64,000 nucleotides of DNA from Trichinella spiralis (GCF_000181795.1 NW_003526941.1:3869348-3933347), one strand, 5' to 3'. Counted from the stretch's first letter, positions 7,298 through 64,000 are shown. Translations and numbers: made by a program. Notes: generated by a model from the letters alone, not told the origin.

Positions 7298-10200
7298 ATG
7301 ATAGGTCCACCGTTGATATCATTCTTTTTGTTATTTGGAATAACAGTAAGCTCGGCTACAGCGCAACACATGTTACGTGAAGGTCGCTGGCGTAAAGTGA
7401 TCATTGCACCGGAAGTAGGCCCTGAAATACGTAGCCGAACTTACAGTGATAGGTAGACAAAGGATTTCACCATTTCTTAAAATTTTCTTGTTGTTTTTTT
7501 TTGATCTACAAATTCTAACAATTTTGAAATCTAAGATTTCGCTCTTGGTGGCAAAGAACGTTAGAATCCTACGACAATCGTCTGAGGCCTGACTTTGGAG
7601 GTAAGTTGCATGCTTGTACTACAGTGTGCTTAAATAAAGTGGACCATTTTTTCCCTTTGCCTGCCGTTTGTTAGAAATGAAAACGGATAACTTTACATAA
7701 ATATATAAATGTTCAAATAACACCTAAACGCCGCTCCCGTTTCTACTTACTATGTATCGTTTCTACCAGGGAGATAAATATTTTTAACCTCAAATGAACA
7801 TAAACACACTTCACAGTAACAATCAAAATTGTACAAATAACACTGGAAATTTCTATTCCAAAAATTTCACTTATGTTTCAGAATTTTATACGTAGCATTT
7901 TTGCGCAGCAGTTTTTACACGTATCACCTATGCTAATAATAATATTAATAATGTAAGCAACTGATAATCGCACAGGTTAGAAATAAATAAACGTTTGCAA
8001 CATTAATTTCTGCAATAGAACATTGTTGAATTTCTTTGCATAAAATTTCACGTGAGGAAAATCGGTTTCACGCAAAAAAACACATTTAATTTCAATTTCT
8101 CACATGATCAATTGAACAAATCACTTTGTGCAGAGAGTTACATTGTGTAATTCAATTAATTTTTCAGCTATAAGCAACGTTGACAAGTAAAATTTTAGCA
8201 ATTTCCACATTTCATCAAAAAAGAGAGCAAATTTAATATTTTTAAGAGCATAAAATCAATGTTTTCTTCACAATTATCCAAAAAGCTGAGATGAAAATTT
8301 TTGGCACCACCATGACACCACTTCGTTCCCTAACCTCATATTCCATTAAATTGATCAAAACGCTTCAAATAAAACTCTGTGTACTTGCAATAACTAAATT
8401 GGAAAACAATCACCATACAGCTGCAAATTTTAATATATTTATTAATTCTTACACACAAATAAATATTTATATGTTTAAACTAACAGCTATATTAACAAAT
8501 CACTGTAACAGATTCGCAGTTGTGTACGAGAGATCTGGGATAGGAAATGCGCATTTACAAATAACGTTACAATTAAGTAAAAATTAAATGCTCAGAAACT
8601 GCAATGCAAAAGAGATATACACATTATATAAATGAAATGTGGGACCCGTCAGTCTGCCAGTCATACTAATATTTAAAGAAGAGCCAATTTTTAATGACAA
8701 TAATGATATAAATGCATAACAACAGCCCACCAAAATTACCTCATATGCCACATTTGTTTAATTACATTTACACCTATGCCTGGAAATAATTTGAAAATTC
8801 CTGAAACGCTATAAAATTATCATAACATTACAGGATCAACGTTGTTTTAAAATCCACATACATAATTCAAATGTTGAACAAACATTTTATTATTTGGAAA
8901 AGTCTCAATCTTCTTCAAATTCACTTAAATCAATGAACTTGCACGCCAATTTTGCATAGAAAAACAACTTGGAATATTCGATATTATTTGTCACATTTGT
9001 AAATTAATGAACAATCAAAGTAGGTTGTGAATTGCTTTTTAATTTCAAAATGAACAAAAACTGCTCATTCAAATTATAATTTTCACAACCAAAACTCAAC
9101 TGAACAACAGCTACTTATAAAAATTATTTATTGCATTCCTTGTCAATTTCCTCCAATGCCGAGAGTGTCTTAACTTCAAAGCTAGAGTGTTCTGAAAATT
9201 TTTAATAAAATTAATAAGATTTTGAAACGTATGATTAAAATTATACTTATATAATTACGCTGAACACCAACCAGTTACCGCTTTTCAATATCATTACTTT
9301 CAATCATAATAATGTGAAGGCCTAATCTGACAACTTACTTTTCCTCACTAATTCTACTGTTTGTGTGTATCTGGAAGTGGTATGTATCATGGTTTATCAC
9401 CAATAAACCCAAGGTTTTGCAAAGGATTAACATCTACATTATTATAATGCTGCATTACATTACATTGCCCTTCCACTCGCCTTTATGAATGATATAAACG
9501 ATGAAAGAATAAATATAACTGCTTGAAGCAATTCGACACGGCAAGCATGAATGAAATGAAAAATAATTCACATTTCTTCTGTTAGCATGACATGGCAAAA
9601 CATCTGTTGCGCACTGAACACTTGAAATGAATAAAAAAAAATTCCACGTTTGTGTGTTCAAGTAAACAATTCAAGTCGTTAATGGAAATGAATTAAAATC
9701 AATTACAGTGATTGAAACTATGAAAAATGAAAAAATAAATGCAGTGAACAGAACTTTATGCGTAAATTGTCAGATTTAAGCATAAAAAAGGACGTTTGCA
9801 TTTTTGAAATTACGTTCAGATGAATATTTTACAAATTGAAACATTGCAAAAACATGACGGCAAAACCGACAGAAAACAGATGAGAACGTATCATTGCTAA
9901 TCAGCCAGGCAAGCAAGCAAGCAAGCAAGCAGGGTGGCAATTGAGCAAGCGGACAAACAAGCAAACAATTTCCGATGTGAAACAAATAATTATGATTAAA
10001 TACTAGAAGAACTTTATAAAACTATGCAACAAATGTTCCGATTGACTTTTAAGCATTATACAACTTCTGTCCAACGTCTACTTTTCAAACAGCTGCATAA
10101 TATTCTTGAAATACTTCAAACAATTTTAAATGTGAAATTTTTTAAATTTCTATTTTGCATTTTGTTGCATTCACAAATAAAATTCAAAATATTTCACATC

Positions 10201-38905: not shown

Positions 38906-41633
38906 AGCTAAATTATACAAGAAAAATTTAATTTTCGAAAAAGGATGATTTCGAGAATTACTGTAAATATTGTAAATCAGGTATAAATTTACGTGATTAA
39001 AATTTCAATGTATTGTATTAAAATTACAAGTGAATAATTTCTATAAATTTTCTTTTGATCATTACAGTTGAACATCGCAAAGTTTGCAATAAATTTTTGA
39101 TGATTACTTATCAAAAAATGCCGAGTGCAAAAGAAAAACATTCACATGCAATATTAAAATGCAAATAAAAAGTTCGATTCGGTTGTCAATTTAAAACAAA
39201 ATAAAATTCGAATTAATTGGTCGTTCGCTTGTGCAAACTTTGAATGAGAAATTGTAATTTTTCAATTTCACCACGGTAACATAAACCGAAACTTGCTAAT
39301 TGAATATAATTTCTCCAATTTTATAAAAAGTTCATCAGCTTGAGAAAAAAAAATATATTATTTTCCTTATTTCAATGCGACATGATAAATTTTGTTTGAT
39401 TTCTTGTTCAAAAAGTACCCAAAATGGAAAATAAAATCTCCTCCCCTGAAGGGTAGAACTGCGATCAATGTCGTCATGTTGATGAACCCGAATGCTTTAA
39501 TGCACGGTAAAACGCAGGCCATTGAACGATATACAATTTCGGCCGAAATTTAATCGTCGGCTTACAGACAATCGACCATGGCTGGCAAGGCCAATAAATT
39601 CACATTATAATCGCTTGAACAGAATTTAATTTTTCAAAAAAGAAATAAGAATAGCAAAATTATTTCACACAATTTCTGTTCACATTTTCTCAACTAGCAT
39701 GCAAGATGATTTTGAATTAGAATCAAAAATGATCAATGTTGATAAAAATATTTTAAAAAATGAATAAATAAGAAATCAAAATATTCAAATAATCAAATAA
39801 ATTTGATTTGAAGACAAATATGTAGAAAAGAAAGAAAAGACAAAAAATAGTAGTAAATTACGTCATTGAAGAGGGAAATTATTTTTCTCATAGAATGTTG
39901 AACTTTTTGGGAAAATCCCGGACAGAAAATTTGGCTAAACTTTTCTTGACCCAGGCACGACCGTATTGCTTACGTGCGTTGCAAGCAGAATGGGTGGCTA
40001 CGTGCAAAAACTTCGCCAACGAATAGAAAGCATTTAGGTCAAACTGACAAGCAAGCAAGAAATTTAAGTGGTCTGATAGCGCCACAGACGATCACTTTCA
40101 GTTCACCGCAGCAACAAATCACCAAACGTTTCCAACAATTTTCATCGGCAACAACAAAAATCAGGTAAAAAATTTCATTCTCATATTTCATTATTATTAA
40201 ATATTTTATTTAAAACAACAAATCTATTGGTCATACAATTGAAAAAGCTGATCTTAATTCACACATATATACCCCCCCTCCCCCAATCTGCATGTTCTAA
40301 ACAACATTATATTATTATTTCAATAAAATCCAAATGTTGCCGAGCCAAACAATTGATCATAGATGATAGATAGTGAATTACAATATTCAGCGTGCATCGC
40401 TCAACCGTGCGAAATTAGCTTACTGAAATTATGAAAATGAATAATAATTTTAAAGTTCAAAAGTCGACTTCAACAATGAATGAATGCAAATGAGATACAA
40501 GAACATAAACGATACAACAATTATTATAAAGCACAACAGATAATTCATCTCTGAGCTTTTTTTGAAAAAAAAGAAGGGGATTGTATAAATTCAGACTGTG
40601 ACATGAAGAAGAAACTAGACTCTCAGCGTATGAAAAGAGCTGTTTACTAGGCCGAATGATGTCCTTCACACATGGTCGACTGTGTTCCGGCTTTACAAGG
40701 TCAGTTCCCATCACTCGCTGAGCAATATTTTCATTTTGCACAAAGCTTATTTCTCATTTCGATTTAAAAAGACGATAAATTTGATTAAGGAAAAATATAA
40801 TAAAGGTGGCAATAAGCAATGCCAAAAAAATAGAAAGAAGCCACATAAATTCAGACATAAACACCCAAAGCAGACGTGAAACAACAGCTGATGCAGCTGG
40901 CTAGACAGACGCTCAGGAAGCAAGATGTTGAGAAACGTTTCCCAAATAGCAACTTTTATACTATAGTCTAGTCGACGAAACAACTGCTTCGTCTGAAAAT
41001 AAAAAATTGCTTCTTCACCAATCCACCGTTAGAAACAGCTTTTTCCTCCTCCCCCACCCTCTGAACCCTCGAAAAATTCAAAATCAACAATTAATTTCCA
41101 ATTAAAAGTTTTCAATAAGAAAATAATTATTAAAAAAACCATATTATCATCTAGATCAAGAATCAGTGTTGGATTTGTAAAAAAAATACTTCTCTCAAAT
41201 TCAACAACGTGTAAAAAAAGAATGATCGCTTAATTTTAAAGCTCTGCTTCAACAACCAATTCAAAATTTCCAAGAATCAAAAAAGATATCGAATCGATGA
41301 AAATGAATTAAAAATTTTAATCCAAAACTGCCTGCCATTGGTTGGAATAGAAATGAAAAGACGAACAATTTCAACTTTGTCAAAAATAGGTTGCATTTAA
41401 GTTAATTTGTGCTTTTCAATTTCGAAATTATTCATTTTATTTGGAGAACATTTTCCATTCAGTAAAGTTTCAATTGAAAAAAATCACACACAACCAACCT
41501 GATTGATATCAAAAACCCACTAGCACATTCTTTGAGCAATCAGCTTTATCGCGTAGAAAAAAGAATTATGAAAGAAAAAAACGCAAATTTTTTTCTTTTA
41601 CAGAAAATATTTAAAAAAAAGAAGAATACAATA

Positions 41634-44298
41634 ATGTTGAACATGATCTGGCCATTGACCACGGCAACGTTGTTGCTTGGTGCAATAACGCCGTTCAGTC
41701 GAGGTGAAGTGTTCACGTCGATGGCCAACATCGACATGCTATTGCAAATGGGTGAAGATGTGTCACGTATTATTGACAACTATGTCGAAGAAGATGAACG
41801 ACGTCTGGAACAATTGAAAAAGTAGAAATTTACATATACACCAGACCCAACAAACCAAATGAATAACCGTTTCAGATTATCCGCCGAATACAAGTCCCAC
41901 AAAGTGCAAGTGCACGGCCAAGAAGGTACTGACAACGTCATTGTGAACCCGGTCGAAAGTTTTGCCATTGTCAAACAGCTCGCGGACAGCTGGCGCTACG
42001 TGGAACAGTTGATGAAAACTAATTCGGCCGAAAGTACCAACCGACCACTTTCAAACAGATTATTGTGATTATTAATTGTAATTGTGAAATTTTCCATTTA
42101 TCAGAATTGATACAAAATTTCACCCATCACACGCACAACTCGGTCGTCAGACCTCCAAGTGAAGAGGATGTGATCGGCACGGCGGTCGGATTGATGCGCA
42201 TTCAGGATGTATACAAATTGGACACTCACGACATGGCCGAAGGGAAAATCAGAGGTGTTCTCGATGGACGCAAACTAACAGGTATTGAAAATTTTCATAC
42301 GTATACGTATATCATGTTTTATTTTTTTTTCCAAATTTCAGCCTACGATTGCTTGGAAATTGCCCGAGTAGCTTATAATAAACAAGATTTCTATCACACT
42401 CTGCTTTGGGCAACCGAAGCTTGGGATCGTGTGCAAAAAGAGGACGAACCGACCATTGACGAGGCGACCGTATTGGAATATATCGCCTTCGCCATGTTCA
42501 AGCAAGGCAACATCGAATGGGCCATCCATTACACAACGCTGATCAAACAAGTCGATCCGAATCACCCCAGGGCGTCGGGAAATTTGAAATATTACCAAGA
42601 TTTATTAGATCCAGAAGGCAAGCCCAGAAAAATTGACCCAAAAAAGCTGCCACCGCCGACAAACCGTCGTCCTGACGATCTCAGCATCCCTGAACGAGAC
42701 GTCTACGAGGGGCTGTGTCGCAGTGAATATCCAATAGTCAGTATACTGACTTCAACGTTCAATTCTTTTCCACCGTACCTGACGATAGATATCTTTAGTC
42801 TGACAAAGATCGTGCCAAATTGTACTGCTATTACAAACGCAACCGACCCTATTTGAAATTAGCACCAATCAAGGTCGAAGTGATGCATTGGAAACCAAAA
42901 ATCGTCTACTTCAGAGGTGTCATTTCTGATGAAGAAATTGCTGTCATCAAGCAACTCGCTTCACCATTGGTAGAATGTTTTTCATTATTTAAGTTTATCA
43001 AAAATCAAACAACACTATTCAAAAATTTAAACTCTGTTCATTTTCAGCTGAAACGAGCGACCGTACACAACGCCGATACTGGACAATTGGAAACGGCAAG
43101 CTACAGAATCAGCAAGAGGTAAATTGAAATTCAACTCCAAAAGAAGAAACAATTTTCACATCTCAAACGTGAAAAGTTGAACAAGTAATATACGCAAATG
43201 TAATGGTTTATTCTTGCAGCGCTTGGCTTAAAGATACAGAACACGAAGTTGTTAAACGCATATCTGATAGAATTGACATGATGACAGATTTGACAATGGA
43301 AACTGCTGAACTTTTGCAGGTAGTTCGACAAATTCTTCTCATAATAATACATTCAAGCTATATTTACAAAAACGCCTATTCAGATTGCTAATTACGGTAT
43401 CGGCGGACACTACGATCCTCATTTCGACATGTCTACAGTAAGTCAATTTAAACTTTTATCCAATAATTCAAATTTACAACCAATTCAACGTGAACACTGT
43501 TTAAGAAAAATAAATAAATGAATAAATGAAAAAAAATTATTTTTCCATCTTCAATGCTCTTTAAAATTTCTAAAGTGAAAATCAACTTATAAGAAAAAGA
43601 GAACAAACTCAAAACGTTTATCAATATATTAAAAACTGGGTAAAATTATGAGCGACAATATGACAAACATTTTTCAGCGAGGTGAAAGCGATCCGTACGA
43701 AGAAGGGACCGGAAATCGCATCGCCACCGTTCTATTTTACGTAAGCCATTACTGATTTTTCTTTTGCTTTTTTAGACAAATGATCCGTACAGTTTCGAAA
43801 GTTTAAATGCAGGAAACCGAATAGCAACCGTACTGTTTTATGTAGGTTATTTATATAAAAGTTATATTTTGTTCATGTTGTTGTACAAACTCTTATTCTT
43901 AAAAGCAAAGATTGTTAAAATGGAAAACAATATCGAAATTGCACGACGATCATAAATAACAACTTGCACATATTATATGAAATGGCATTATTATTTTTAT
44001 AGATTTCACAACCGGAAGCTGGGGGCGGAACTGTATTCACTAGTCACAAAATTACTGTCGAACCAAGCAAAGTAATTTAACTTATTTTATCCATTTACTG
44101 GAGTTTTATTTCCAATGTTCACAGTACGACGCCGCGTTTTGGTTTAACGTATTGCAAGGAGGAGAGCCAGATATGAGTACGCGACATGCAGCATGTCCTG
44201 TGCTGGCGGGTACAAAATGGGTGGCTAACAAATGGATTCACGAAAGAGGGCAAGAATTTCGTCGTCCTTGTTCTACGAAAGAAACTGACTATGAATAA
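41634..44298 (+). CDS. P4HA: Collagen prolyl 4-hydroxylase alpha subunit, copy 1 (one duplicated exon pair)
   Basis: Signal peptide then EVFTSMA, NPVESF, LMRIQDVYKL, DCLEIARVAY, YEGLCR, LKLAPIKVE, RATV...YRISKSAWL, IANYGIGGHYDPHFD, GNRIATVLFY, RHAACPVLAGTKWVANKWIHERGQEF. Stop at 44298. Confidence 0.96.
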
Positions 44299-44381
44299 GC
44301 GACTCCTACGTACGCTGAAACTGCTCTAAATTTTTACCATTGTTCTTTTTTTTCAACTTTATCAAACATTTCACTTTATCC

Positions 44382-44382
<1 letters not shown>

Positions 44383-44421
<39 letters not shown>
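44383..44421. repeat. (ATT)13 microsatellite
   Basis: Perfect ATT run in the 3' region of P4H copy 1. Confidence 0.95.
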
Positions 44422-45329
44422 GTTAACTGTTTCAACTGTATTAAAGATGTCACGTGCGTTTCATTTCTCTTTTCATTATAGCGAATTCGAACAAACAATG
44501 ACGAATAGGAAATTGAAACATGCAAAACCACATACATAAAACGAAATAACAGATCTCTTACCTTATGAGTAATCTTCTTAATTACTATTTCTTCGTCCTA
44601 TAAGCACCTTCTTACTCTGCATACAATTATAAACAAAACTACTGACCAAGTCGGCTACTTGATTCAAATTTTATCACTTAATTTACAGTATAATAAATAA
44701 TACTTGAGTGTCACAATGTTTTTACTGAACATGTTATAAGCATCATTGATATCAGTAAATTTAGTAAGCATGCTAAATTATTTACTTTAAATAAATATTT
44801 ATTTGAAAGTATGGTATTTACAACTGTAGTGTGAATTATTTTAGCAATAAGAAGTTAGTTAACAATGAGGAGCGTTATTATCATATTTGCACTGACGCAG
44901 TGATTCTTATTATTCTTCGACTACGAAGCGGTTTCCCTAAGTTATTTCTCAGACAACAGCACAACAACTTGATTCCTATTTATAGTGCTTGCTCTAAAAA
45001 CAAAACTGCACTATCCATTTGGTCCTACTGTAGGTCATTGGACTTGAATTTTGTTGCACGCGGAAAAATATGATCTTTATTTAAAACTTGTTTTAATGAC
45101 TGCTGCTCCTATAATTTGTGATAAATTCTTTGATTCTTTAGTCTTTTCCCCCGGGTGCGTTACTTCTGCTACGCGGCTGTTGCTTGTTTGACGAGTATAT
45201 CTATCGTAGGCAATGCTTTCTTGAAAACGATCACTTCCTTTTTGTTGTTAAATTGTTTTCACCTTTCATTTAGATTGAACAACTTTTGACGGATTTTTAC
45301 TTGAAATAAAGCTGCTCAAAACACCTACA

Positions 45330-48300
45330 ATGGCATTATCACATTTCATTATCTTTATCACACTGATGGATTGGTGGTGTGCCATGCGATCATCTGCCGA
45401 GGTATTTACAGCCATGGCTGATGTGGAAAACCTCATTCATACTGAAGATAATGTGGTGGACGTGATTGAACAGTACATTGAAAGTGATTTGAGACGACTG
45501 CAGCGTTTGAAAAGGTACATTTTTTTTGAATGAATTTTAGTTTTTCTTTTTTTCAACCGGGAAATCGTCTTTCGTCTACTTCCTCCAACGTGAAGAAGAC
45601 CTATAAATGTAGTAGCATTATAAGTTACAGATTAAATATTCAGCTGAGCAAGTTTATCATATGAAGAAGAATGCAATTTATCAAAAGTCGCACCCTAATA
45701 TTCTATCCAACTAAGATGACGTTTTTACCTTGAGCAGTAGTTCGGCGACCTTTTCTCAAAAGTGACACACACACACGTGAGAGTCATTTTTAAACCAATT
45801 TATATTTTATTGTCAGTTGTTTGTTCGAACTCTTTCGAAAACGTAACCTGCATGAAAATTTGATTTAATTATTAGAAAAAAATAACATAACAGTTTGTTT
45901 TTATTGATAATTAAATTCACACATAGTTTGGCACAAGAATATCGTGAAAGCAAAGAAAAAGCTTTGAAAGAAGGTGCAGATCGACTTTACAATCCAGTGA
46001 ATGCATTTTTATTTATTAAAAAACTGACCGAAGAGTGGAACGACGTTGAACTGCTGATGAAATCTGACCACGCAGACAGTAAATGAAATTTGTTTTCATG
46101 TTCAATTTTACAATATCAAAAAATACTTACATTTGACGACCATTTTCAATAGTTTACTTACAAAACATAACTGCAATGCGGGATTCATCGTTGGCTAAAT
46201 TCCCTACTGAAGAAGATTTGACCGGAGCGGCCGAAGCTTTGCTACGCCTTCAAGATGTCTACAAATTGGACACGCATGAATTATCTTCTGGAAGAATAAA
46301 AGGTGCCAAGCAGGGTCTTGAATTGGATGGTATGAATTAATTTGTTTAATAATATTTCCTGGTTTGTTTATTTTGTTTTTCGCTTAACAATAGCTAACGG
46401 CTGTTTTGAACTTGGTCGAGTTGCTTATAATCAAAAAGATTATTACCATGTGATCCTTTGGATGCAGGAAGCGTTGAATCGCGTTGAACATGAAAATCCA
46501 CCGTCTGTTGATCAGGCCGAAATTCTCGAATATCTTGCTTACGGAATGTATCAACAAGGCAACGTGAAAAGAGCGTTGCAGTTGACGAAACGCTTGCAAC
46601 GCATCAAGCCCGATCATCCCAGAGCTGAAGGAAACGTCAAATGGTATCTGGACCTATTGGCTAAAGAAGGTGTGTCCAGAGTTACCGATCACGATCTGCC
46701 ACCAATCGTCAATGCTCGTCCGAACGACCAAGCTCTGCCAGAGAGGAAGGACTTTGAAGCATTGTGTCGTGGTGAATATTTGCTGGTAAAACAAAAAAAA
46801 TCTCAAATTATGCAAATATACCCCAACAATAATTTCTTCCGTAAATTACTCTTTTTAAACAGACAGAAAAACAACGCTCTCGTTTGTATTGCTATTACAA
46901 GCGTGATACACCATTTTTGAGTTTGGCACCGATCAAGGTGGAAGTGATGCACTGGAAACCAAAAATTGTCATTTTCCGTCAGGTGATCAGTGCAAACGAG
47001 ATTGCCGTATTGAAAACTCTAGCATATCCTCGGGTAAGATTTCTCTGGATGTGTTCATATTATTGTTCTTGAGAGAAAAATGGGCAGTTTCCATCGCGCT
47101 TTTTTGTTCTTTTTTTTCGCGTACTTTTTCAGCTTTCCCGAGCGACGGTGCAAAATTCCGAAACTGGCGAACTTGAAACTGCTAAATACAGAATCAGCAA
47201 AAGGTGTCGAACTGTTTGTTTTTCCTTTATTGGGTGGGGTTCACTTTAGCTTTGTTAGAGCATGCTTTTGTCTCTCTCTCTCTCTCTTTTTTTTTTACCA
47301 ATTATCACTTCCATTAGTTTTGCTTGTTCTTTTGTTGCTTTGTAGTTGCGAAGAGCCACCGTGCACAACAAGGAGACGGGACAACTGGAACACGCCTCGT
47401 ATCGTATCAGTAAAAGGTGTTTGTTGTTTGCATTAACTTTATATATTGCTTGTTATTGTTAGATATGCTAGAAAACATAAAAGCTTGGGTAGTAGTAGTA
47501 GTAGCTAGTTGATTGTATGAAAAATAATCTACGTACTTACCTGCTTTTGCAGTTTCTCATTTTGGTAATTTATAATTTTTCAGCGCATGGTTGAAAGAAC
47601 ATGAACATCCAGTAGTTGATAGAATCGTAAAAAGGATCCATGATATGACCAACTTGAATATGGAAACTGCTGAAGATCTTCAGGTATATTTTTTAGCTTC
47701 AACAATTTGCTCGACTTCAGTTACAGATTAATATTCTTTCTTCGTTTTTTCATCTTATTCATTCACTGGTTAATTTTCATTTTTCACATTTGGCGTCATT
47801 GGTTTTCTTTTTTCTTTTGTCAGTGATAATCATCAATGTGATGATGATATTAAATGTTCTATTTACAGATTGCCAACTACGGTCTCGGAGGTCATTACGA
47901 CCCTCACTTCGATCATGCTAGGGTAAGCATCGTGCTAGAGGGTCATTGTCAATGATAAATTGCATTTTTTATGAACTCTTAACATTGAAATGAGAATAGT
48001 AATAATAATAGTAATCAAAGAAATAACGTGTACCGATTACTTAGGTTTCACTTCCAGGATAATACTATTATTACAGTATATTGGAACGCAGGATAAATGC
48101 AATATATAATGTGTTTGAACCGAACCGCTACAAACGTAATAAAAGATATACATTGACAACGTTCTCTCTAGCACGAAATTCTTTCTTTACTTATTTTTTG
48201 CTTTTGTTTAGATAGCCAATTACGGGATAGGTGGTCACTATGAACCTCATTTTGATATGTCTACGGTAAGCGATGCGCCGGTTATCTCATCAGCAGAGAG

Positions 48301-49241
48301 GCTCTAATTAAAAACATAAAATTGTAGGGAGATCAGTAATTAGAGATGTAATTTATAATTTATAAATACAAAATAACCAAACAAAACAAATTAAACAGCC
48401 TCTGCTGATGAGAGAAAATATCCGGTTAAATTTTCAGTAGACCTTTGCTCATGGACTATTTCAGCGTGACGAAGTGGATCCATATGAGCACGGGCATGGA
48501 AATCGCATCGCCACCACTCTTTTTTATGTGAGTATTTTATTCAACATATTTTGCAAGATGTTTTTTCTTTATAGAAGGAAGAGGTGAATGCTTTCAAAAG
48601 CCTGAACACTGGTAATCGGATCGCAACGGTTCTGTTTTATGTATGTATTTAATTTTATATGCACTGTCGGTTGAATTTTGTTTCCTTTTGCTTCTACCTT
48701 TTCTTTTCTACGTATACCGCATGCCATAATCGAAAATTTGCTTCTATTTTTGCATGAAAAATGTGCAAAGGAAGAAGTTTCAATACAAAAAAAAACTGAA
48801 TTATTTCAAATTCTAATTTGCATGCTAATATATGAATAATATGTGAATGAATGTGCTGCAACTTTATCCCTTTTCTTCGACTAGTTATGATAGTTGAAAA
48901 GTCAACCAACGTGGACAAATATCCTTCCTTTTAGATATCTCAACCTGAAGCTGGTGGTGCAACAGTGTTTATTACACACAAGTTGGCCATTTTTCCAGTC
49001 GAGGTAAAGTAAAAAGCAGATCACTATGATGAAAGTGGAAGCCATAGGGGACGTGCTACTTTTTCAGGGTGACGCTGCATTTTGGTTCAATTTGAAACCT
49101 AATGGCGAAGGTGACATGTCGACCCGCCACGCAGCTTGTCCAGTTTTAGCTGGTGTGAAATGGGTTGCGAATAAATGGATTCACGAACGTGGTCAAGAGT
49201 TTTACCGGCCTTGCGGTCTACGCGAAGATGATTATGAATAA
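45330..49241 (+). CDS. P4HA: Collagen prolyl 4-hydroxylase alpha subunit, copy 2 (three duplicated exon pairs)
   Basis: Same motifs and largely the same intron positions as copy 1 (EVFTAMA, NPVNAF, LLRLQDVYKL, CFELGRVAY, FEALCR, RHAACPVLAGVKWVANKWIHERGQEF). Alternative exons at 47133-47203/47346-47416, 47869-47922/48212-48265 and 48465-48527/48575-48640. Confidence 0.96.
47930..48176 (+). promoter_or_regulatory. Intronic inverted repeat (candidate pre-mRNA stem) between alternative exons B1 and B2 of P4H copy 2
   Basis: 47930-47942 pairs with 48164-48176 (13 bp, one G-U) and 47946-47954 pairs with 48151-48159 (9 bp). Confidence 0.65.
48278..48425 (+). promoter_or_regulatory. Intronic inverted repeat (candidate pre-mRNA stem) between alternative exons B2 and C1 of P4H copy 2
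   Basis: TCTCATCAGCAGAGAGGCT (48285-48303) pairs with AGCCTCTGCTGATGAGA (48397-48413), 17 bp with a 2-nt bulge, plus an outer CCGG/CCGG pair. Confidence 0.65.
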
Positions 49242-49764
49242 ATGCGAACAAAAATGAACCGACCGAAATCGTTATTATTGCATCAGTTGCAACTCTTATT
49301 CTTTTTTAAATGTACAAAAAAATTTCAATTTTAATTCCAGTACAGAGTATTGTTATCGATTATCGTTTCTGAAACTGTTGCTTTTTACATTTCCACGATA
49401 CAGTATGCAAATATATAATAGCCTCAAGCCAAGCAATGATTTATCCCCTCCTATGCTCTCTTCTTCCAGTACAATCTCAGTGGTTGAAAATATATTTTCT
49501 GATATTTCGTTTTCACTGCCTACCTTTTTCTTTACTGTGAATGATATACTTAAATAAGTAAGTATATAACGAATGGCCTGTTATTTACTTATTTATCAGT
49601 TTAATACATTTTTGATTACTACATTGTTGCTCTCCTGTGCTGAATAAAAAGATTCCAAAATCGATCAATCAATTTGTAAAAGACGAATTGTGAAATTGGA
49701 AAAAAAAGCTGCGCAATGATGCACTGAAAAGCAGCAAAAAGTACGCTTTGATCGTGGAATGCTT

Positions 49765-63048: not shown

Positions 63049-64000
63049 TTACTGCCGACAAGCGGACCGTGATCTTCTTCGTGAATGCAAGCCGAAAAAG
63101 TCGTCTCCTACCGACGGCAAACAAGGAGGTGAGCCGCGGTGATGAGAACTGTTGTTGATGTTGACGAACGGCCCTTGTGTATCCACGTTCAGAAACAAAT
63201 CCATACTTTCACCGTCGAACAGCAAACTGCCGGCGAAATCGGTCAGCTCGTTCTTGGTCGAGTCAAGTCTGACACCGTCAACATCCAAAAAGTCACTAGG
63301 AAACAAACTGGACGAGGCGACATCTTCCAGAAGCATCTGATGGAAGCTATCCAAGCAAGACGATGTCTGCTGTTCGTTTAGCTGCTGTTGCTGTTGTTGT
63401 TGTTGTTGCTGCTGCTGCTGTTGCTGTTGGTGTTGGTGCTGTTGCTCCTCTTCAGCAATGTTCAGCTCATAGCTTTGCCTCTGATTGTTGCTATTATTAG
63501 CGACGTTGCCGTTGATCACCGCCGTCGGCCCACCACCGCCGCTACTGTTAGTGCTACTGCTAACTGTCGCCTCGTCCAACGTGGTCGGATGCATACGACG
63601 TTGGTGCTCCTTGAGCTTATCTCGTCCTAGCGGGTGGAAAAAAATTACAATGCAAACTCATGGNAGAACGGGTTTCACTTCCCANAATGAAATCCGTCTC
63701 GTGACGGGACCCAAGTGGTGACTTTTCCAAAAAATGCTTTGGCCGCAATTTTGAACAGGGAAAATTTCTTCTCGCCAGCGTGGGGTTCTCAAATGGCCAA
63801 TCAAGTGGGAACGTTTGGCAGCGAAAAAGTTACAATGCGGCTCTTTGCAGCGGAACACATTTCCCGAATGGATTCTCTTGTGCGTTTGCAAATGGGACCT
63901 GTACTTGCTTATGAAACCGCAATGTTCACAGTGGTATGGTCTGAGGGTATCGTGTGAGCGCATGTGGATCTGCAATCTTCGTTTGCTTGAAAAACTATTA
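63049..64000 (-). CDS. C2H2 zinc-finger protein, 3' part only, with polyQ and acidic C-terminal region
   Basis: HMRSHDTLRPYHCEHCGFISKYRSHLQTHKRIH and CKEPHCNFFAAKRSHLIGHLR fingers. Last exon has a polyQ run and stops at 63049. Sequence around 63660-63790 contains Ns and probable errors. Confidence 0.75.

What the first reader, a model, noticed from the sequence alone, without database searches (positions are those of the whole stretch)
47923..48211. Intronic RNA stem that could enforce mutual exclusion of the two active-site exons
Both B exons are 54 nt, so co-inclusion would stay in frame and escape NMD; some other exclusion mechanism is needed. The 289-nt intron between them has complementary, relatively GC-rich arms at its extremes: TCGTGCTAGAGGG/CTCTCTAGCACGA (13 bp, one G-U) and TTGTCAATG/CATTGACAA (9 bp). 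Pairing leaves only 7 nt after the B1 donor and 35 nt before the B2 acceptor. Inference: the stem brings the B1 5' splice site too close to the B2 branch point, mimicking a too-short intron. This resembles structure-mediated exclusion known from arthropod exon clusters, which I do not know of for P4H genes.
Basis: partly seen in the sequence, partly recalled or inferred. Interest (0 to 1): 0.85.

Follow-up and report, generated by a model that had tools for sequence, protein, structure and literature searches.

The report
Intron hairpin mimicking a too-short intron
In a Trichinella worm's collagen prolyl 4-hydroxylase gene, the introns on both sides of a duplicated active-site exon have strongly complementary ends predicted to fold into RNA stems, and the first would leave only 42 free bases, likely too few to splice, which would keep the two exon copies out of the same mRNA.

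Summary
The gene is a Trichinella prolyl 4-hydroxylase alpha subunit (phy-2-like). The B1-B2 intron ends pair at about -36 kcal/mol: 0 of 2000 shuffles, rank 1 of 584 donor-like sites in the window. Stem 1 leaves 42 free nt, below the shortest other intron in the two local genes (53 nt). Stem 2 leaves 49-70 nt and lies in an intron whose junction is used in other nematodes. The paralogue that lacks B1 has no such stem. Best reading (0.42): stem 1 blocks B1-B2 joining by crowding, and stem 2 shortens B2-C1 to a normal length. Not shown: real mRNA paths, branch points, conservation or compensatory changes, since no RNA reads or orthologous intron DNA were obtained. Of 198 database proteins, 26 join B1 to B2, probably prediction artefacts. 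New variant of a known kind; interest 0.55.

The parts
45333..49240 (+). Gene 2: prolyl 4-hydroxylase alpha subunit, phy-2-like, of an encapsulated Trichinella (approximate coding span)
   Evidence: Exon 46396-46782 is 100% identical to T. nativa, T9 and T. patagoniensis proteins; introns mapped
47133..47203 (+). Exon Z1, 71 nt, first of an upstream duplicated pair
   Evidence: used alone in database models such as P0008 and P0061
47346..47416 (+). Exon Z2, 71 nt; joining it to Z1 shifts the frame; the 142-nt Z1-Z2 intron has no end stem
   Evidence: (161 of 200 shuffles as stable)
47584..47683 (+). Exon A, upstream of the B pair
47869..47922 (+). Exon B1, 54 nt, carries the His-x-Asp iron-binding motif
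   Evidence: aligns with the human P4HA2 catalytic domain, 7zsc; the role of the motif is established knowledge
47930..47957 (+). Stem 1, 5' arm (13-bp helix 47930-47942, 9-bp helix 47946-47954)
48147..48176 (+). Stem 1, 3' arm (48151-48159 and 48164-48176); holds one branch-like motif, A at 48156
48177..48211 (+). 35 free nt before B2 with candidate branch adenosines at 48189 and 48193 (predicted from a yUnAy pattern only)
48212..48265 (+). Exon B2, 54 nt, second copy of the His-x-Asp exon
   Evidence: (74% identical to B1 over 62 nt)
48277..48303 (+). Stem 2, 5' arm (outer 5-bp helix 48277-48281, core 14-bp helix 48285-48298)
48395..48426 (+). Stem 2, 3' arm (core 48400-48413, outer 48422-48426)
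48465..48527 (+). Exon C1, 63 nt
48528..48574 (+). 47-nt C1-C2 intron, the shortest in the gene (35 nt in the paralogue)
48575..48640 (+). Exon C2, 66 nt
48935..49003 (+). Exon D, downstream of the C pair
41634..44299 (+). Gene 1: tandem paralogue with only a B2-type exon (43384-43437); its 240-nt B-C1 intron has no end stem; used as control
   Evidence: z +1.44; 28 of 300

Best explanation
The ends of the B1-B2 intron are complementary and are predicted to pair in the pre-mRNA, which would leave 7 + 35 free bases and likely make the intron behave as one too short to splice, so that B1 and B2 would not be joined. Each site would stay usable with a distant partner (B1 donor to a C exon, exon A to B2), as with a truly short intervening intron. 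The second stem would do the ordinary job of such stems: it would cut the 199-nt B2-C1 intron to 49-70 free bases, the normal short-intron size here, and so favour B2-C1 joining. The main products would be A-B1-C2-D and A-B2-C1-D. Shown: exon layout, complementarity far beyond chance, spacings. Inferred: folding in the cell, branch point, minimum intron size in Trichinella, the splicing outcome. Which exon is chosen is probably set by proteins, not by the stems.
For: Both stems 0 of 2000 shuffles and ranks 1 and 2 of 584 donor-like sites; 8 other intervals of 100 nt or more in the two genes reach 14-298 of 300, 3 more 152-198 of 200. Free length 42 nt against 35 and 47 nt for the C1-C2 introns and 53-101 nt for the 13 shortest of the other 21 introns. 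The stem is present at the one exon pair that has neither a frameshift nor a short intron, and absent from the paralogue without B1. Yeast modelling asks for a start 10 nt or more from the donor, an end 20 nt or more from the branch point and a linker of 42-85 nt (PMC12350175, passages): stem 1 gives 7, 12-16 and 19-23; the stem 2 core gives 19, 37 and 56. Freeing a 42-nt linker in stem 1 costs 32 kcal/mol in the model. In C. elegans 5 of the 10 in-frame exclusive clusters use introns under 40 nt (PMC4165533). One Ascaris lumbricoides model reads through an 8-residue spacer between B1 and B2, which would be a 24-nt intron (P0086): a weak hint that another nematode solves the same problem with a truly short intron. 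The B2-C1 junction is spliced in a protein from a 1592-nt JGI contig that retains the C1-C2 intron (P0093).
Against: No RNA reads and no orthologous intron DNA were seen, so exclusion, isoform paths and compensatory changes are untested. 26 of 198 database proteins join B1 directly to B2, 15 of them Trichinella; all are genome annotations, and such models also join C1 to C2 across a 35-nt intron (17 proteins), so I read them as artefacts, but cannot prove it. C. elegans splices introns of about 40 nt (PMC4165533), so 42 nt is borderline there, and the Trichinella minimum rests on 23 introns. The yeast rule comes from 3D modelling of a different spliceosome. With its outer 5-bp helix, stem 2 leaves 11 + 38 nt (linker 35), close to stem 1. 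B1-C1 (19) and B2-C2 (7) paths also occur in database models, so B-C coupling is not absolute. The Ascaris model holds other duplicated stretches that look like assembly errors.
Confidence: 0.42

Rival explanations
1. The two stems act together as a damper on the inner B2-C1 unit: they crowd the B2 branch region and the B2 donor, and further pairing hides the C1 acceptor, so the default path is B1-C2 and B2-C1 is used only when proteins open the structure.
For: Predicted pairing of B2 donor +5 to +11 with exon C1 (48270-48276/48505-48511, p 1.00) and a mostly paired C1 acceptor (unpaired probability 0.16). Freeing B2 donor and C1 acceptor costs 27 kcal/mol. [quoted passage not shown] B1-C2 is the commonest path in the protein set (105 B1-to-C2-type junctions, many from genes that have no B2).
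Against: The extra helices are short (4-7 bp), partly exonic and were not tested against shuffles. B2 acceptor itself is predicted mostly free (0.58-0.61).
Confidence: 0.2
2. Both stems are ordinary bridging (zipper) stems that help splice-site pairing or exon recognition, and B1/B2 exclusion is set by RNA-binding proteins.
For: Yeast zipper stems promote splicing (PMC12350175). C. elegans phy-2 exon 10 splicing changes in sup-12 mutant embryos and phy-2 is among the most co-regulated genes (PMC3025544, passages); whether exon 10 is a B or C exon was not checked. Two UGCAUG motifs lie in the C2-D intron (48751, 48819). 5 of 10 in-frame exclusive clusters of C. elegans have introns long enough to splice and still exclude (PMC4165533).
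Against: A stem that helps B1-B2 joining would favour a duplicated active-site segment. Stem 1 fails the zipper spacing rules. No other intron of the two genes has such a stem.
Confidence: 0.17
3. The arms are neutral: decayed ends of small transposons or local inverted duplications that happen to lie in these introns.
For: The antisense strand pairs equally well. Length of about 250 nt fits a miniature element. Only 64 kb could be searched for copies. One stronger helix lies elsewhere in the window (63309-63322/63565-63578).
Against: No target-site duplication in the flanks and no other copy of the 25-nt arm in the window. The two stems are unrelated in sequence (951 of 2451 and 2006 of 2447 background windows align as well), yet sit in adjacent introns hard against the splice sites of one exon.
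Confidence: 0.12
4. An ATE1- or Dscam-like switch: the 3' arm is a docking site that pairs either with the intronic 5' arm or with the end of exon B1 and its donor, silencing B1.
For: The B1 end and donor pair with the 3' arm at -16.5 kcal/mol, matched by 21 of 2470 background windows. In human ATE1 two elements compete for a third and disruption gives double-exon transcripts (PMC7797038, passages).
Against: The rival is 18 kcal/mol weaker than the main stem and within the background range (best -18.9). Other candidate partners are ordinary (82-314 of about 2460 windows). The full fold keeps stem 1 at p 0.96-0.99.
Confidence: 0.07

Closest known systems
Steric mutual exclusion by short intervening introns or close branch points (C. 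elegans let-2 9/10, egl-15 5B/5A, bet-2, gly-5, gly-6; vertebrate OGDH 4a/4b)
   Same: In-frame duplicated exons, and a proposed donor-to-branch-point distance below the assembly limit (PMC4165533 read parts 1-3 of 4; PMC7969005 passages)
   Different: There the distance is short in the linear sequence; here the intron is 289 nt and only folding would shorten it
Yeast zipper stems (RPS17B, RPL7B)
   Same: A stem between donor and branch point that shortens their distance (PMC12350175 passages)
   Different: They promote splicing and leave 42-85 nt; stem 1 leaves 19-23 nt to the predicted branch A. Stem 2's core fits the yeast spacing
Competing docking/selector pairings (Dscam exon 6, 14-3-3zeta, srp, human ATE1 R1/R3/R4)
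   Same: Intronic pairing next to duplicated, alternatively used exons; ATE1 has pairing that prevents double inclusion (PMC7797038, PMC4691838 passages; PMC6071210 part 1 of 5)
   Different: They need rival partners or loop out an exon, or mask a 3' splice site; here each stem is closed within one intron, loops out no exon and has no comparable rival
Dscam exon 17 (steric hindrance with RNA structure; Yue 2013)
   Same: Steric exclusion combined with an intronic stem (title seen in reference lists only; paper not held)
   Different: As I recall, the branch point there lies near the upstream donor and the stem brings it to the acceptor; here only 7 nt precede the stem and the branch candidates lie after it. 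Recalled, not checked
Hymenopteran MRP clusters guided by several intronic stems (Yue 2017)
   Same: Multiple intronic stem structures in an exclusive exon cluster (one sentence in PMC6071210)
   Different: Unknown: the paper is not held, so it may already describe stems that close single intervening introns
Vertebrate P4HA1 and P4HA2 mutually exclusive exons
   Same: Same enzyme family; P4HA1 10a/10b is listed as a tandem exclusive pair (PMC5224494 passages)
   Different: From recall these pairs match the Z and C positions, not B; not tested here. The passages tie P4HA1 to branch-point and pyrimidine-tract layout, not to a stem

Membership tests
Mutually exclusive exon pair | Tandem homologous exons of like length and phase coding the same protein segment | tested here: met
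   54 and 54 nt, phase 0, 74% identical with flanks
Mutually exclusive exon pair | Each exon used alone in mRNA and double inclusion absent | tested here: inconclusive
   Single-B models exist for both exons, but 26 of 198 proteins join them; none of 19 JGI/Logan proteins flagged as likely transcript-derived and none of 80 metagenome loci has two B motifs, but few of these are from this gene family branch and none is Trichinella
Steric exclusion | Linear donor-to-branch distance below the limit | tested here: not met
   Linear distance to the candidate branch A is 266-270 nt
Steric exclusion | Effective distance below the limit once folded | tested here: inconclusive
   19-23 nt to predicted branch A, 42 nt to the AG; branch point and Trichinella limit unmapped
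Zipper stem (yeast definition) | Starts 10 nt or more after the donor, ends 20 nt or more before the branch point, linker 42-85 nt | tested here: not met
   Stem 1: 7, 12-16, 19-23 nt. Stem 2 core would meet it (19, 37, 56), not with its outer helix
Docking/selector competing structure | One site with two or more partners of comparable strength | tested here: not met
   Main pair -34.7; best rival -16.5, inside background
Docking/selector competing structure | Conservation with compensatory changes across species | not testable with these tools
   No genomic locus with B1 and B2 among metagenome hits; no genome held
NMD-enforced exclusion | Double inclusion shifts the frame or adds a stop | tested here: not met
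   Not for B (54 + 54 nt, no stop); met for the Z pair (71 nt)
U2/U12 spliceosome incompatibility | A U12-type donor on one flanking intron | tested here: not met
   No GTATCC in 41600-49300 and the four ATATCC are not at mapped donors
Miniature inverted-repeat transposon | Target-site duplication flanking the inverted repeats | tested here: not met
   Flanks of both stems differ
Miniature inverted-repeat transposon | Dispersed copies in the genome | tested here: inconclusive
   No further copy in 64 kb; genome not held
Intron-encoded ncRNA (snoRNA, miRNA) | Match to an Rfam model | tested here: not met
   47300-49000 gives 2 matches, E 1.6 and 4, both viral elements far below gathering score

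The most novel reading that the evidence does not exclude
One RNA device used as a ruler with opposite outcomes in neighbouring introns: a stem that leaves 42 nt forbids splicing and one that leaves 49-70 nt promotes it, together turning two duplicated exon pairs into a nested switch (B1-C2 or B2-C1) of the iron-binding strand and substrate loop of a collagen hydroxylase, in a gene whose three exon pairs use three different exclusion mechanisms, with other nematodes reaching the same end by truly short introns.
Probability: 0.25. Interest if true: 0.8.

Novelty: new variant of a known kind. Interest (0 to 1): 0.55.

Why it matters
Half of the in-frame exclusive exon clusters tested in C. elegans have introns long enough to splice, and how they exclude is open (PMC4165533). 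A folded 'pseudo-short' intron would be a simple answer that can be searched for genome-wide, and the two neighbouring stems give a natural test of how much free RNA a nematode spliceosome needs around a helix. The B/C cassette appears in gene models from clades I, III, IV and V and changes the active-site region of an enzyme that nematodes need to build cuticle collagen (established knowledge), so its isoforms may differ in substrate choice. My ten paper searches returned no description of this stem or of phy-2 exclusive exons, and phy-2 is absent from the validated C. elegans table; the library lacks most subscription journals and three of the most relevant papers, and I did not open any supplement, including the IRBIS list of 241 nematode pairings (PMC4174434).

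Tried and rejected
No whole genome is held. A degenerate pattern for genomic B2 exons found 0 matches in metagenome contigs; an alignment scan gave 80 loci, 76 with one B motif, 4 with none, none with two, so no orthologous intron. Cross-pairing of the two stems (arm b with c, a with d) and an upstream look-alike at 47817 were considered as a docking/selector switch and rejected: 275-314 of about 2460 background windows pair as well. Common origin of the two stems rejected. A C/D snoRNA reading was dropped. No tandem repeat in the cluster. No database protein reads through the B1-B2 intron of Trichinella, so arm conservation could not be had that way. A third protein search for more B1-spacer-B2 models found only the Ascaris one among 24 hits. 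One search used several boundaries off by a base and one interval that spans exon Z1; these were redone and the result stands. An earlier count said 9 control introns and only two single-copy paths; the calls give 8 control intervals and four paths. One search was in the wrong frame. No fold of the double-inclusion protein was run (alignment A2, unused), as a model would not tell whether the mRNA exists. Earlier-findings look-ups returned nothing.

Full report
Setting. The window holds two tandem prolyl 4-hydroxylase alpha genes on the + strand. An exon of the second is 100% identical to proteins of Trichinella nativa, T9 and T. patagoniensis and 97-98% to non-encapsulated species; its closest Caenorhabditis hits fall in the cluster named PHY-2. 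Matching joined flanks to database proteins fixed 23 introns. Gene 2 has three duplicated exon pairs: Z1/Z2 (71 nt each), B1/B2 (54 nt each) and C1/C2 (63 and 66 nt). B aligns with the His-x-Asp strand of the human P4HA2 catalytic domain, 7zsc; that this motif binds iron is established knowledge. Gene 1 has one B2-type exon and a C pair.

Observation. The region folds at z -2.07, the intron alone at z -3.07. The first 45 and last 80 nt pair at -36.3 kcal/mol, reached by 0 of 2000 shuffles, and this is the best of 584 donor-like sites on both strands of the window. The helices hold at p 0.96-0.99 in a fold of the whole cluster. The reverse strand pairs as well, so the sequence alone does not show that RNA rather than DNA is what is selected.

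A second stem. The next intron, B2-C1, has an unrelated stem of equal strength: z -2.76, -37.6 kcal/mol, 0 of 2000, rank 2 of 584. The two core helices rank 2 and 3 of 459 on the + strand; rank 1 lies in G+C-rich sequence near 63.3 kb. Controls: 8 other intervals of 100 nt or more gave 14-298 of 300 shuffles (two marginal, 14 and 21), three introns round the Z pair 152-198 of 200, and the paralogue's B-C1 intron z +1.44. So strong end pairing is confined to the two introns that flank B2 in the gene that has two B exons. This is one gene against one paralogue.

Geometry. Stem 1 leaves 7 + 35 = 42 nt; branch-like adenosines at -23 and -19 give a donor-to-branch linker of 19-23 nt. Stem 2's core leaves 19 + 51 = 70 nt (linker 56), or 11 + 38 = 49 nt (linker 35) with its outer 5-bp helix. 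The C1-C2 introns are 35 and 47 nt; the other 21 introns are 53 nt or longer. Yeast modelling requires 10 nt after the donor, 20 nt before the branch point and 42-85 nt in all (PMC12350175, passages): stem 1 fails each, stem 2's core passes. A yeast reporter study found that structure upstream of the branch site lowers splicing (PMC12637734, abstract and Results parts 1-2 of 3). Against this, C. elegans splices introns down to about 40 nt (PMC4165533, parts 1-3 of 4), and a vertebrate threshold of about 50 nt from donor to branch point (PMC7969005, PMC5740500, passages) need not hold in worms.

Isoforms. Models carrying both B types occur in Trichinella, Trichuris, Ascaris, Strongyloides, Steinernema, strongylids and C. 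remanei, so the cassette is old. Over 198 proteins the junction tally is B1 to C2-type 105, B2 to C1-type 56, B1 to C1-type 19, B2 to C2-type 7, B1 directly to B2 26, B1 to B2 with an 8-residue spacer 1, B2 to B2 1, others 15 (fused models count twice, and many genes have no B2). All 26 are genome annotations; models of this kind also join C1 to C2 over 35 nt and Z1 to Z2 by a shifted site, so I take them as predictor artefacts; the passages I saw of the Trichinella genome paper say only that de novo and homology-based prediction were combined (PMC4740406). One protein from a 1592-nt JGI contig has B2 spliced to C1 and the C1-C2 intron retained (P0093), which I read as a transcript. The Ascaris spacer would be a 24-nt intron, and a Steinernema model reads through 10 residues between C1 and C2; both are single models.

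Rivals tested. No partner competes with the main pairs: best rival for the 3' arm is the B1 end and donor, -16.5 against -34.7. No target-site duplication or second copy in 64 kb, no Rfam family, no U12 donor. Predicted extra pairing that hides the B2 donor and C1 acceptor supports a damper model that I cannot separate from the steric one. Protein control is likely in any case: C. elegans phy-2 splicing responds to sup-12 (PMC3025544, passages).

What is missing. No RNA reads and no orthologous intron DNA were obtained; metagenome scans gave none. Exclusion, branch points and compensatory change are therefore untested.

Comparison. It works like steric exclusion by a short intron, reached through a zipper-like stem; it is not a member of the docking/selector class by the competition test, nor a yeast-type zipper by spacing. 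ATE1 (PMC7797038, passages) and srp (PMC4691838, passages) use competing pairs; concealed-branch-site stems (PMC11162794, passages) would apply only if the A at 48156 were the branch point. The Dscam exon 17 and MRP papers and the Jin 2018 review could not be read and may hold a closer precedent. PMC11802352, PMC4174434 and PMC4022200 were searched by passage only and gave nothing on this gene.

Verdict. The stem is real and very likely selected (about 0.85 that it affects splicing). New variant of a known kind; interest 0.55.

Noticed in passing
window 47133-47203 and 47346-47416: A third duplicated exon pair (Z1/Z2, 71 nt each) in the same gene, also seen in Trichuris trichiura and Nippostrongylus models; from recall it sits where human P4HA1 has its exclusive pair
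   Followed up: partly
window 48431-48440: A strong acceptor-like TTTTCAG 27 nt before C1, followed by an in-frame stop; stem 2 would leave only 22-43 nt between the B2 donor and it. A T. patagoniensis model (P0070) uses the AG 3 nt further on with a donor 15 nt into the intron
   Followed up: partly
window 41634-44299: Tandem paralogue with only the B2-type exon and a 35-nt C1-C2 intron; many public models fuse the two genes into one 1100-residue protein
   Followed up: partly
window 48270-48276 and 48446-48511: Predicted pairing of the B2 donor region with exon C1 and a hairpin over the C1 acceptor
   Followed up: partly
window 48751 and 48819: Two UGCAUG (RBFOX-type, label from PMC4165533) motifs in the C2-D intron; 3 in 41600-49300, 23 on the + strand of the window
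   Followed up: no
window 46937-46949 with 47303-47315: 13-bp complementarity (-16.4 kcal/mol) between the exon upstream of Z1 and the region before Z2, which would loop out Z1
   Followed up: no
window 63309-63322 with 63565-63578: Strongest helix of the window (14 bp, -27.6 kcal/mol) in G+C-rich, probably coding, low-complexity sequence
   Followed up: partly
window 7346-7360 with 7430-7444: 15-bp inverted repeat 70 nt apart whose arm on the - strand begins with a donor-like GTAAGT
   Followed up: no
L020:1420-1700 and L072:357-640: Non-nematode-like P4H contigs with two tandem C-type exons, so duplication of the C exon is not limited to nematodes
   Followed up: no
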